Assembly: GCA_964016885.1 (NCBI GenBank)
Contig: OZ024741.1
Span: forward strand, 117,490,001 to 117,554,000
Length of the DNA: 64,000 nucleotides
Direction: 5' to 3'
From: Eledone cirrhosa
Lineage: Eukaryota
How positions within the stretch are numbered: position 1 is the stretch's first letter; each line of letters starts with the position of its first letter. The notes beneath the pieces are model-generated. The model made no database searches, had not been told where the DNA came from, and was given only the letters and a program-made list of their open reading frames with translations. Shown one piece after another: positions 5,849-54,150 of the stretch. Position numbers and translations under genes: made by a program.

Positions 5849-6000
5849 CCGGGTTCAATCGAGGGTAACTACAGTAAGTAAGGTACTCAATACATTAGCA
5901 GAGTGTATACAGCAAATTTAATATAGACATGATTTCTACAGGACTTGAACTCATTCCTTCGAATGAAACAGTTCTAGTCCTGTAGAAACCATTTCTATTA
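5849..6000. mobile_element. Family A copy, inverted dimer with the CUGAUGA half lost at the centre
   Basis: Same ccgggttcaatcgag..gtaaggtactcaatac tail and the same gaatgaaacagttctagtcctgtagaa arm. Flanked by (GT)n/(TA)n. Confidence 0.75.
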
Positions 6001-6061
6001 TTAGATTTGTTACATATATATGTGTGTGTGTGTGTGTGTGTGTGTGTGTGTGTGTGTGTGT

Positions 6062-6280
6062 GGGTAGTTTTCCGAAAAAGAACGGAAATAGACCACAATG
6101 AAATAAGGTACTCAATAGATTAGTACGGAGAGTATATAATCTATTTCATATGGAAATAACTCTTACAGGGCTAAATCTGTTTCATTCCTTTGAAATCATC
6201 AGGCACTTTCGTGATGATTTCAAACGAATGAAACAGTTCTAATTCTGTAGTAGTCATTTCTTTATGAAACAATCATATAT
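6062..6280. mobile_element. Diverged family A copy with two back-to-back hammerhead cores (6164-6202 minus; 6211-6249 plus)
   Basis: Minus: CUGAUGA-UUUC(AAAG)GAAU-GAA-ACAG(AUUUAGCC)CUGU-A. Plus: GUGAUGA-UUUC(AAAC)GAAU-GAA-ACAG(UUCUAAUU)CUGU-A. Stem I is disrupted at the inversion junction. Confidence 0.72.
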
Positions 6281-7017
6281 AATTCTAATTCCTACCCACA
6301 CGAAATCCCTTCTGTCACTGTTTAACGTGTCCATCCTAGTTGTTGGGTCTGTATTTTTAATTATACAAACTTAAATAAGTTATTGAGTGAGTGAGAAAAC
6401 GACTGATGCCTTGTCATTTACATCTGACATTGTGTGTGTGTGTGTGTGTGTGTGTGTGTGTGTGTGTGTGTGTGTGTGTGTGTGTGTGTGTGTGTGCAAT
6501 TCTTTATTATGAGTGTTCACAGGATCACCAGACATGACTGAATATTCAGTGACAGAGAGACAGTATAACTAGAGAAAGCTCCAGAGAAATGCGGTTTTGT
6601 TTTGTTTTTAGATGAGAGGCATTGTGTATGTAGGGAAGCACTTAGGTCAGATGTGGACAACAATAGAGAGAGTATGAAGGAGATGAAATAGGTGAAGAGT
6701 ATGTCAAAAGCGGAAGAAAAAAGTCAAGGAGTAACAGAAAGTCAAGGAGGTAGCGGAGAAGAAAGGAAAAACAAGGAAAGGGAAGAGAAAAATGAGTCAT
6801 TCTCTTGTCTTTTTTGTCTTCTTTCGCCCTTTTCTCTGTTGACAGTATATATCTGGACAGATTGAAGAGACCTAATATATACTTTAATTTCAGCCTGGTC
6901 AGATTGTTTAGCTCTGGTTTTTAACTATTGAGCACTTTGCCAGTATCATTTCTGATTTTGGCGTTTCGCTTCGCTTTTCCTGGCGCCGAAAATGCGATTC
7001 TCGCTGAATCTTTATTT

Positions 7018-9972
7018 GTATATATATATTTGTATATATATATATATATATATATATATAAATGTGTGTGTGTATACGTATATATATATATATATATATA
7101 TATATATATATATATATATATATACGTATATATATATATATATATATACGTATATATATATATATATATATATACGTATATATATATATATACGTATATA
7201 TATATATATATATATATACGTGTATATATATATATATATATATATATATATACGTAAATATATATATATATATATACGTATATATATATATATACGTATA
7301 TATATATATATACGTATATATATATATAGATATATATATATATACGTATATATATATATATATATATATATATATATATACGTATATATATATATATATA
7401 TATATATATATATATATATATATATATATATATATATATATATATATATACGTATATTTATATATATATACGTATATATATATATATATATATATATATA
7501 TATATATATATATATACGTATATTTATATATATATATATATTTATATATATATATACGTATATATATATATATATATACGTATATATATATATATATATA
7601 CGTATATATATATATATATATATACACGTATATATATATATATATATATACGTATATATATATATATATATATACGTATATATATATATATATATATATA
7701 TACGTATATATATATATATATATATACGTATATATATATATATATATATACACGTATATATATATATATATATATACGTATATATATATATATATATATA
7801 CGTATATATATATATATATATATATATATATATATATATATATATATATATATATATATATATATATATATATATATACGTATATATATATATATACGTA
7901 TATATATATATATATATATATATATATATATATATATATATACACGTATATATATATATATATATACGTATATATATATATATATATATATATATACGTA
8001 TATATATATACATATATATATATATATATATATATATATATATATATATATATATATATATATATATATATATATATACACGTATATATATATATATATA
8101 CACGTATATATATATATATATATACGTATATATATATATATATATATATATATATATACGTATATATATATATATATATATATATATACGTATATATATA
8201 TACATATATATATATATACGTATATATATATATATACGTATATATATATATATATATATATATATATACGTATATATATATATATATATATATATATATA
8301 TACGTATATATATATATATACGTATATATATATATACGTGTATATATATATATATATATATATACGTATATATATATATATATATATACGTATATATATA
8401 TATATATATACGTATATATATATATATATATATATATATATATATACGTATATATATATATATATATATATATACGTATATATATATATATATATATATA
8501 TACGTATATATATATATATATATATATATACGTATATATATAATATATATATATATATATATATATATATATATATATATACGTATATATATATATATAT
8601 ATATATATATATATATATATATATATATACATATATATATATATATATATATATATACATATATATACGTATATATATATATATATATATATATATATAT
8701 ATACGTATATATATATATATATATATATATATATATACGTATATATATATATATATATATACGTATATATATATATATACGTATATATATATATACGTAT
8801 ATATATATATATATATACGTGTATATATATATATATATATATATACGTATATATATATATATATATATATATATACGTATATATATATATATATATATAC
8901 GTATATATATATATATATATATATATATATACGTATATATATATATATATATACGTATATATATATATATATATATATACGTATATATATATATATATAT
9001 ACGTATATATATATATATATATACGTATATATATATATATATATATATATATATATATATATACGTATATATATATATATATATATACGTATATATATAT
9101 ATATATATATATACGTATATATATATATATATATATATATATACGTATATATATATATATATACGTATATATATAATATATATATATACGTATATATATA
9201 TATATATATATATATACGTATATATATATATATATATATACGTATATATATATATATACGTATATATATATATATATATATATACGTATATATATATATA
9301 TATATATACGTATATATATATATATATATATATATACGTATATATATATATATATAAATATATACGTATATATATATATATATATATATATATATATATA
9401 TACGTATATATATATATATATATATATATATATATATATATATATACGTATATATATATATATATATACATATATATATATATATACGTATATATATATA
9501 TATATATATATATATATATATATATATATATATATATATATATATATACGTATATATATATATATACGTATATATATATATACGTATATATATATATATA
9601 TATATATATATATATATATATACGTATATATATATATATATATATATATATATACGTATATATATATATATATATATATATATATACGTATATATATATA
9701 TATATATATATATATATATATATATACGTATATATATATATATATATATATATATATATATATATATATACGTATATATATATATATATATATATATTAT
9801 ATATATATATATATACGTATGTATATATATATATATATATATACGTATATATATATATATATATATGGTATATATATATATATATATATATATATATATA
9901 CGTATGTATATATATATATATATATATATATATACGTATATATATATATATATATATGGTATATATATATAT
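7018..9972. repeat. ~3-kb (TA)n array interrupted by CG (tatacgtata)
   Basis: Direct reading. The same signature occurs in 10564-10816. Confidence 0.97.
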
Positions 9973-52213: not shown

Positions 52214-53842
52214 TTATACTTCTCTTAGGTCAGTGTTGTTTGTTTGGGTGTTGTTGTTGTTCCACTCATTCTTTCTGTTTAGCTTTGGTCTTCTAATTTC
52301 TATTTCACTGGCCTCTCTGATTTGCCTATCTGCTGGGTCATTCCTATGTTTAGATATTATTCTAATTTCTATGTTGTCTATGTTACCGTCATGTTGTTGT
52401 CTAGCATGTTCGTATAGTACTGACCCGTTTTTTCGTCCTTTTAGTTCCCCCCAGTGTTGGTCTATCCTTTCACCTTTGCTACGAGCTGTCTCACCTATGT
52501 ATGTGGTTGTCGTGTTTCTGCAAGTACCCTCTGTACATCTTATGCTATAGACTACGTTTCTAGTTTTACAGTTTATCCGGGGGTTCACCTTACATATGAT
52601 ACATTTCCTATTGGTACAGTGGGTTTTCTTAAAAGGGTAGGTTTTGCTGATCAGGGATTTTATGGTGGTTCCTGGCTTTTCTACCACCTTTATTTTTAAG
52701 TGGGTCTTTCTCAGGGCCTTTCTACACTGGTTAGCTAATTTCCCTCCAGGGGTGGCGTCCACAAACATGACACTCTGATATCTCTGGTTGTCGTACCATG
52801 ATGTGGCCTTCCCTATCTTATGTCTAGCCCTATCTAAGCTATTCCATCATTTGCTCCTGTATAGTGGGCAAATTCCTTTCATGTCCAGTTCTATGAGGGT
52901 CTTATACTTTTCCATGGCTCCTTCGTATACTCTGACTCTGTCTCTTTGGTTGTAGCCAGAGAACTGCATGCGGTTGATGAAGTGTTGGATGTGTCCTTCC
53001 ATTTCTGTTGGGTCGCACATGCTGGACACATTCTTCATCACTCGTACCAAATCTGCGATCAGAATATTAAACTTAGCACTACTGGACATTGCTGAGTTTT
53101 TGAGTATCAGGTATTTGGAGGCCATGGGTTTAGCATAGTGTGAGTGGAGAATTTGGGCTCTCTCGTCTATAGTGTTAATCCAGAGTTCTGTGTCTAATAC
53201 AGGTAGTCTATTGTTAGGGTGTTTGGAAGGGAAGTCTATAGTTACAGTTATACTCTGGTGTATGGAATTAGCTATCTGCTGGATGCTTTCCATCGTGCTA
53301 CGTTCTAAATCAAACTTGTTAGTGCTCTCTAGTGGGGGTGTTCTTATAGCTATATTGATATCGTCTACATAACGAGAGTACATGATGAGGTCTATGGAGC
53401 TTTCATTAAGGAGATCTTTAAGTCTCCTTTCCCACCATACCATGAAAAGGTTGGCAACATCACCAGCTATGCTGACGCCGATGGCTGCTCCCTCATTTTG
53501 GGTGTAGATTTTCTCATTGAACTTAAATATGTGGCCCTTTAGGGTAGTTTTGATACTAGCCCCTATTGCATGTGCGACCATTTTTCTTACCTGATCAGTG
53601 TTTTGGGGGGTCCGTATAGCTTTGGTCCACCCAATCCACCTTCCTATGGGAGTCTTTTTAGCCATTGAGGTTATGGTGGGGGGTCTACCTCTTATAGGTC
53701 TACTAGGGCAGAAACATCTAAGGTCATGGCTGTCTAGGTAGTCAGTGTCGTAGGTAAGTCTAAGTAGGAGGCCCAGTTCGTCTGTGTCGACGTCGCAGAA
53801 CTCCACCTCACTCTCAATGATCATCTCCACACATCTTTTCAC
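52214..53842 (-). pseudogene. Penelope-like RT-GIY-YIG ORF with a single in-frame TGA at 52847-52849
   Basis: Track ORFs 52847..53842 and 52214..52768 are in the same frame. The junction reads CPLYRSK*WNSLDRARHKIGKATSWYDNQRYQSVMFVDATPGG. Confidence 0.9.
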
Positions 53843-54047
53843 AGCAAAATCAATGTTAATATATATATATATGTATATATATATATATATGTGTATATAT
53901 ATATATATGTATATGTATATATATATATATATATGTATATATATATGTATATATATATATATACGTTATTCCGGGTTGAATCGGAGGTAACCACAGTAAG
54001 TAAGGTACTCAATACATTGCAGAGTATAAAAGTTTTAATATAGATGA

Positions 54048-54096
54048 GATTCTACAGGACTAGAACTGTTTCATTCTTTAGAAATCATCAGGAATC
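54048..54096 (-). ncRNA. Type I hammerhead ribozyme (family A), inverted partner copy
   Basis: Minus strand: GAUUC-CUGAUGA-UUUC(UAAA)GAAU-GAA-ACAG(UUCUAGUC)CUGU-A-GAAUC. Confidence 0.85.
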
Positions 54097-54097
54097 A

Positions 54098-54150
54098 GAG
54101 ATTCCTGATGATTTCTAAAGGATGAAACAGTTCTAGTCCTGTAGAATCTC
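54098..54150 (+). ncRNA. Type I hammerhead ribozyme (family A), predicted cleavage after GUA at 54143
   Basis: GAGAUUC-CUGAUGA-UUUC(UAAA)GGAU-GAA-ACAG(UUCUAGUC)CUGU-A-GAAUCUC. 7-bp stem I, 4-bp stem III and a complete core. Confidence 0.88.

What the first reader, a model, noticed from the sequence alone, without database searches (positions are those of the whole stretch)
5849..54150. Family A shows structure-type conservation, with a U.U mismatch closing stem II
Seen: across copies, stem II stays U-UUC(NNNN)GAA-U while the tetraloop varies (UAAA, AAAC, AAAG, UUUC, UCCC). Stem III stays ACAG/CUGU while its loop varies (UUCUAGUC, UUCUAAUU, AUUUAGCC). Unrelated families F (U-CCC..GGG-U) and H (U-AU..AU-U) also have U.U at 10.1/11.1. 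Established: the canonical hammerhead prefers a G10.1-C11.1 pair. Inference: a recurrent non-canonical core variant is under selection in this lineage.
Basis: partly seen in the sequence, partly recalled or inferred. Interest (0 to 1): 0.7.

Follow-up and report, generated by a model that had tools for sequence, protein, structure and literature searches.

The report
Penelope-like transposon hammerhead with U·U mismatch
These repeats are the hammerhead RNA motif of a very abundant jumping gene from a known clade; its odd U·U mismatch is real and almost fixed, is already in print for that clade, and likely weakens a self-cutting activity that was not tested here.

Summary
Family A is the pseudo-LTR hammerhead of a Hydra-clade Penelope-like retrotransposon: its tail runs into a 713-aa RT + GIY-YIG frame, and the motif has 33,103 genome matches, 31,674 with U10.1·U11.1. 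Loop II and N7 vary between subfamilies; core, U·U and stems II/III do not (0 of 26 sites), and stem I covaries. So source elements are constrained; inserted copies decay evenly. Loop III is as fixed as the stems; its two 'variants' come from one decayed locus. Only one of five window loci is intact. Family F is a related Hydra element (52% protein identity) whose core carries U4A in over 95% of matches. U·U is known: 14 of 25 Hydra-clade families in Craig 2021's supplement, and an axolotl hammerhead that cleaves weakly. Less expected: an 8-nt fixed loop III, and 5' ends that stop just upstream of the core, about 31 nt behind a TATA box. The scan earlier noted related hammerheads elsewhere in this genome. 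Cleavage and expression are untested.

The parts
53968..54171 (-). A5: young family-A insertion in (TA)n; about 135-nt sense unit (hammerhead, spacer, tail) preceded by an inverted copy of its own 5' part
   Evidence: (39 of 40 scored genome hits 100% identical over 131-133 nt)
54048..54096 (-). Intact type I hammerhead, sense arm: stem I 5 bp, core from 54091, U10.1·U11.1, stem II 3 bp + tetraloop, stem III 4 bp + 8-nt loop, H17 at 54053
   Evidence: grammar scan
54100..54148 (+). Inverted arm of the same hammerhead, core from 54105, one difference from the sense arm (U·G in stem II)
5849..6001 (-). A1: decayed family-A insertion with tail; 5' half of the core deleted in both arms
6063..6279 (-). 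A2: old two-armed insertion; core from 6202(-) with broken stem I, and from 6211(+) with C3G; source of both loop III 'variants' and of two tetraloops
14418..14589 (-). A3: two-armed insertion truncated inside the core (starts at N7, 14537), mismatch in stem III
45662..45714 (+). A4: tail-less hammerhead fragment with C3A, carried inside another repeat (same flanks in 6 of 30 loci)
15785..15835 (+). Family F hammerhead-like motif: U4A core, U·U, 9-nt loop III, U at H17; pLTR of a sister Hydra-clade element
11400..11700 (.). Family H inverted pair (cores at 11473(-) and 11613(+)): U·U, C·C in stem II, short palindromic helix III; end of a roughly 2-kb non-coding unit, clade undetermined

Best explanation
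Family A is the type I hammerhead motif in the terminal repeat of an intact-ORF, Hydra-clade Penelope-like retrotransposon, and its U10.1·U11.1 mismatch is likely an inherited clade trait that is predicted to make the ribozyme a weak cutter. Shown: motif, copy number, link to a 713-aa RT/GIY-YIG frame, (TA)n targets, inverted 5' duplications, constraint between subfamilies. Inferred: transcription starts about 31 nt behind a TATA box, at the first bases of stem I. Reverse transcription starts inside the 5' leader at a small stem-loop about 135 nt downstream. It runs through the uncleaved hammerhead to the RNA 5' end and snaps back, giving tens of thousands of short two-armed copies that then decay neutrally. 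Cleavage is likely slow and helped by pairing of two hammerheads or by the element's protein, and serves RNA processing of tandem or read-through transcripts rather than insertion itself.
For: 68 genome matches to the tail-ORF junction. Of 20 fetched, 4 hold a 713-aa frame and 1 a 711-aa frame; L174 is pLTR-ORF-3'UTR-pLTR with a 4,963-bp unit. Hydra motifs RWR, DKT, CxCx5C, CxxC, CxH present and DKG absent (definitions). U·U in 14 of 25 Hydra-clade families and in F (52% identity over 312 aa). Subfamily changes avoid 26 core/stem sites. Compensated pairs occur in stem I (A-U 27, C-G 14 of 55) and in the tail hairpin (U-A 30, C-G 18 of 55). Of 53 core-bearing copies, 37 carry 0-7 templated bases upstream of C3, 2 carry about 12-16, and 14 run past the TATA box, which lies 30-33 nt before stem I in 12 of these 14 (read). 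Only 4 of 92 copies start within 3 nt of the cleavage site. 46 of 75 truncated copies have the inverted arm. Stem II is predicted open in monomers (P 0.01-0.25). Precedents: internal RT start in a stem-loop and insertion without cleavage for an anole element; a U·U axolotl hammerhead cleaves 22% in 1 h as monomer and more as dimer.
Against: No cleavage or transcript data. Stems II and III show no compensated change, so their pairing rests on the canonical grammar. Each of the two compensated swaps may be one event. Whole-motif folding is no better than shuffles (z about 0). The helix III self-duplex is matched by 12.5% of 840 loop permutations, so dimer formation is not established. The two arms at 6063-6279 differ at 1 of 27 core/stem sites but 9 of 30 flank sites (p 0.013, post hoc), more skew than neutral decay predicts; across 49 arm pairs there is no such skew (core/stems 2.9%, loop III 4.3%, loop II 1.0%). 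The sample comes from the first 30 Mb of one contig and is anchored on one tail motif. The 5' boundary also fits a 3' splice site.
Confidence: 0.72

Rival explanations
1. The fold is kept as a binding or structural element for the transposon protein or for transcription, and cleavage no longer matters; U·U is simply tolerated.
For: F has 24,573 matches of which at most 974 keep U4, and most of the 20 U4 loci read are junctions of inverted arms. Loop III is fixed although it has no catalytic role. Anole core mutants insert normally. Copies derive from uncleaved RNA.
Against: In A only N7, the one free core position, varies between subfamilies, as expected if chemistry is selected. U·U hammerheads are active elsewhere.
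Confidence: 0.15
2. One reading: U·U arose repeatedly in unrelated families of this lineage and is positively selected over G-C.
For: U·U occurs in A, F, H and five further motif families met by chance in the fetched loci. In the H-like families with a C·C mismatch the same pair is G-C, G·U, A-U or U·U, so it has changed more than once.
Against: F is a Hydra sister of A; U·U is the majority Hydra state outside this genome; other families here keep G-C; H has no linked ORF.
Confidence: 0.08
3. The sharp 5' boundary is an intron end: the RNA is spliced onto stem I, as in Drosophila Penelope, and is not initiated there.
For: A pyrimidine-rich stretch and a CAG precede stem I in most long copies. 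The D. virilis intron ends at helix I, and that promoter is TATA-less.
Against: Truncated copies share no upstream exon sequence; what precedes stem I is the inverted arm. The TATA box keeps its distance in two subfamilies whose intervening bases differ.
Confidence: 0.05

Closest known systems
Hydra-clade Penelope-like elements and their hammerheads (Craig et al. 2021, PMC8557442; read: passages, section 11, supplement parts 1-2 and passages of its alignments)
   Same: Single RT + C-terminal GIY-YIG frame with RW[K/R], DKT, CxCx5C; (TA)n targets; type I hammerhead with 3-4-bp stem II; U·U in 14 of 25 families; U at H17 in 10 of 25, as in F.
   Different: Loop III is 8 nt (9 in F) against 1-3 nt in their table; unit about 5 kb because of a microsatellite-rich 3' UTR against under 3 kb; the listed Hydra-1_Obim has a different hammerhead. 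The passages read do not comment on the U·U.
Axolotl retrozyme hammerhead HHR_Amex2 (Cervera & de la Pena 2020, PMC7229834; read: passages, section 15)
   Same: U·U at the base of helix II, about 60,000 motifs, type I.
   Different: Non-coding tandem repeat with loop-loop contacts and a 2-bp helix III; activity measured there (22% in 1 h), not here.
Natural U10.1·U11.1 hammerhead (Perreault et al. 2011, PMC3088659; read: passages, section 8)
   Same: Same mismatch; stated to be the best-tolerated mispair at this position.
   Different: Listed as a rare variant, not tied to Penelope-like elements.
Anolis Poseidon element PAc (Frangieh et al. 2024, PMC11167929; read: parts 1-2 of 4)
   Same: Hammerhead at the pLTR-ORF junction, RT start in an AC-rich stem-loop that defines the tail, insertion from uncleaved RNA, AT-rich targets.
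   Different: Other clade; RT start lies inside the ORF there and about 58 nt before the ATG here; their data are biochemical, mine are genomic.
Minimal PLE hammerheads (Cervera & De la Pena 2014, PMC4209133; read: parts 1-2 of 4)
   Same: pLTR location, opposite-strand pairs, low activity, proposed dimer.
   Different: Long helix II, bulge after A9, conserved G10.1-C11.1 and almost no helix III; family A has none of these.

Membership tests
Hydra-clade PLE | Single ORF, RT followed by C-terminal GIY-YIG | tested here: met
   713 aa; YRDD at 347, GIY-YIG-like motif at 585; Pfam GIY-YIG only E 0.069, no RT hit
Hydra-clade PLE | RWK motif, DKT instead of DKG, CxCx5C linker, CxxC and CxH near the end | tested here: met
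   RWR 38, DKT 116, no DKG, CxCx5C 566, CxxC 666 and 691, CxH 694 (definition)
Hydra-clade PLE | (TA)n insertion and hammerhead in the pLTR | tested here: met
Hydra-clade PLE | Generally under 3 kb | tested here: not met
   4,963-bp unit in L174; described as a tendency, not a rule
Hydra-clade PLE | Placement in the clade by RT phylogeny | not tested
   Published proteins seen only as supplement passages; no tree built
Type I hammerhead ribozyme | Conserved core and NUH site in a three-helix junction | tested here: met
   for F, U4 is not met
Type I hammerhead ribozyme | Helices supported by covariation | tested here: inconclusive
   Stem I yes; stems II and III have no compensated change
Type I hammerhead ribozyme | G10.1-C11.1 pair | tested here: not met
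   0 of 55 rows paired; exceptions are published
Type I hammerhead ribozyme | Match to an Rfam hammerhead model | tested here: not met
   No hit at gathering score; best 15-17 bits, E above 1
Type I hammerhead ribozyme | Self-cleavage | not testable with these tools
   needs in vitro assay
Non-LTR retrozyme | Non-coding head-to-tail units of 150-400 nt giving circular RNA | tested here: not met
   Copies are dispersed, truncated ends of a coding element

The most novel reading that the evidence does not exclude
The hammerhead is the first 49 nt of the transposon's TATA-driven mRNA, so cutting would remove the cap from its own message. U·U plus a fixed 8-nt loop III act as a brake that allows cutting only in dimers or with the protein. 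The enzyme primes in a leader hairpin of the same RNA and turns that leader into tens of thousands of hairpin insertions. Sister family F, with a U4A core in about 24,000 matches, is then a natural test showing that Penelope-like elements spread without cleavage.
Probability: 0.35. Interest if true: 0.55.

Novelty: new member of a known kind. Interest (0 to 1): 0.3.

Why it matters
The function of hammerheads in Penelope-like elements is an open question in the papers read. Family A offers a young element with intact frames, a defined 5' end and RT start, and a sister family with a naturally altered core, which makes the question testable. The U·U itself is not new.

Tried and rejected
Rfam: no hit at gathering score; E-value hits are microRNA hairpins that only reflect the inverted repeat. 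The neighbouring RT frame at 52214-53858 was considered as A's partner and rejected: no similarity to the A protein and its own hammerhead at 51940. A DNA search for F returned nothing, not even itself, so it was uninformative; patterns were used instead. The pattern was mis-spaced; its 118 matches are not used. RNA runs: no RNA holder listed, which is no evidence either way; no reads were laid. H's coding partner: 13 loci followed about 2 kb past the tail, no linked ORF; the Hydra ORFs in L231 and L239 belong to other insertions. One row each (L111; 6210+) was out of register and is ignored; the TCCC row is an inverted arm with a loop III change. The Fisher tests on shared alleles counted alleles and were redone by site. 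Literature searches for a comment on U·U in Hydra-clade hammerheads, for octopus hammerheads, for a TATA-driven pLTR with hammerhead and for U4A found none; the library lacks most subscription papers, and Lünse et al. 2017 on dimeric PLE hammerheads (recalled) did not appear. A sequence look-up in the scan's notes returned nothing.

Full report
Setting. The window lies in a 3.0-Gb, AT-rich, microsatellite-laden animal genome (G000:C2:117490001-117554000). I did not identify the organism. Rfam finds no family at gathering score. A grammar scan and BLAST give five family-A loci.

Observation. All six arms that retain stem II have U at 10.1 and 11.1, and the tetraloops listed are there. Only the locus at 53968-54171 is a complete hammerhead. 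The others have lost part of the core, carry C3G or C3A, or cannot form stem I. The C3A copy at 45662 is cargo in another repeat: 6 of 30 loci share its flanks.

Genome-wide test. A 35-place pattern that leaves stem II, both loops and 10.1/11.1 free has 33,103 matches (control 2); 31,674 have U·U. To avoid bias I anchored on the tail (16,852 matches) and read 92 distinct copies from the first 93 of 100 listed places. 66 covered the core; 8 rearranged ones were dropped, leaving 58. Alleles shared by 5 or more copies occur at 4 of 4 loop II sites, N7, 14 of 54 spacer/tail sites, 1 of 8 loop III sites, 1 of 5 stem I 3' sites and 0 of 26 core, U·U and stem II/III sites. At a threshold of 3 copies the last figure is 3 of 26. 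Private changes are equally frequent in constrained and free regions, and 49 arm pairs differ as often in core and stems as elsewhere. On 55 of the 58 copies (3 further rows with altered or missing core parts left out), compensated changes are found in stem I and in a tail hairpin, none in stems II and III. So selection acted on source elements; loop III is fixed, loop II is free. Against this, the old locus at 6063-6279 is skewed towards loop III and flanks (p 0.013, post hoc).

What the element is. Some copies continue past the tail. The junction has 68 matches, and 5 of 20 fetched hold a 711-713-aa frame with the Hydra-clade motifs of Craig et al.. L174 reads pLTR, ORF, microsatellite-rich 3' region, pLTR. 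Most copies are the roughly 135-nt leader alone, set in (TA)n, with a fixed 3' end and an inverted duplicate of the 5' part.

Families F and H. F's tail also leads into a Hydra ORF, 52% identical to A's over 312 aa, so it is not unrelated. Of 24,573 F matches at most 974 have U4 (the two patterns differ slightly, so this is an upper bound), and most of the 20 read are arm junctions. H has 848 candidates and is the end of a roughly 2-kb non-coding unit without a linked ORF; its clade is open. Five more U·U families and several with G-C, G·U or A-U turned up by chance in the loci.

Mechanism. Of 53 core-bearing copies, 37 have 0-7 templated bases before C3, none 8-11, 2 about 12-16, and 14 extend past a TATA box that lies 30-33 nt before stem I in 12 of them (the long class was assigned by motif). 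Only 4 of 92 begin near the cleavage site, about what an even spread of the 28 internal truncations would give. I infer a transcript starting at stem I, internal priming at the covarying tail hairpin about 58 nt before the ATG, run-off through the uncleaved ribozyme and snap-back. This parallels the anole element, where RT starts in a stem-loop and core mutants still insert. Folding predicts an unstable stem II with U·U and 3.3 kcal/mol gain with G-C; the motif as a whole folds no better than shuffles. A dimer through helix III is possible but not exceptional against permuted loops. None of this shows cleavage.

Comparison with print. Perreault 2011 reports natural U10.1·U11.1 and calls it the best-tolerated mispair. 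Cervera 2020 reports about 60,000 axolotl motifs with U·U and weak monomer cleavage. In Craig 2021's File S2, 14 of 25 Hydra-clade families (26 rows, one repeated; two rows share a motif) show U·U by my count. What differs here is the long fixed loop III and the sharp 5' boundary. The 2026 retrozyme preprint was read in part 1 of 5 only (its supplements are closed), and Schostak 2008 in passages. Supplements of the Perreault and Cervera papers were not opened and may hold closer examples.

Verdict. A real, constrained motif; a new family of a known clade with a known mismatch. Interest 0.3.

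Noticed in passing
window 15785-15835 and genome-wide: Family F: about 24,000 matches with U4 replaced by A and U at the cleavage site; a highly successful element with an altered catalytic core.
   Followed up: partly
window 51890-53858 (-): 5'-truncated, frameshifted Penelope-like RT and endonuclease frame of another clade, with its own minimal hammerhead (core at 51940, bulged U, G-C closing pair).
   Followed up: partly
window 41136(-), 12548(-), 12636(+), 41698(+): Two further hammerhead families, one with A-U and one with a G-C closing pair.
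   Followed up: no
L010, L021, L069, L128, L231: Five other hammerhead families with U·U and short palindromic helix III; the L021 family has a stem II like A's.
   Followed up: no
G000:C12:1313495-1315001: Tandem array of a 23-nt unit holding both halves of a hammerhead core.
   Followed up: no
window 45560-45760: A longer dispersed repeat carries a core-mutated A fragment; 6 of the first 30 pattern hits.
   Followed up: partly
window 56385-59066 (-): Broken LINE-type reverse transcriptase frames, Pfam RVT_1.
   Followed up: no
window 14760-15173, 24572-25105, 26357-28189, 30566-31282 (+): Open frames that look like large exons of a host gene; the 610-aa one has no Pfam hit.
   Followed up: no
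window 13202-13659: Two tandem copies of a 230-bp repeat.
   Followed up: no
L223-L227: Short F units in which the ORF start is joined almost directly to the next pLTR, a possible non-autonomous derivative.
   Followed up: no
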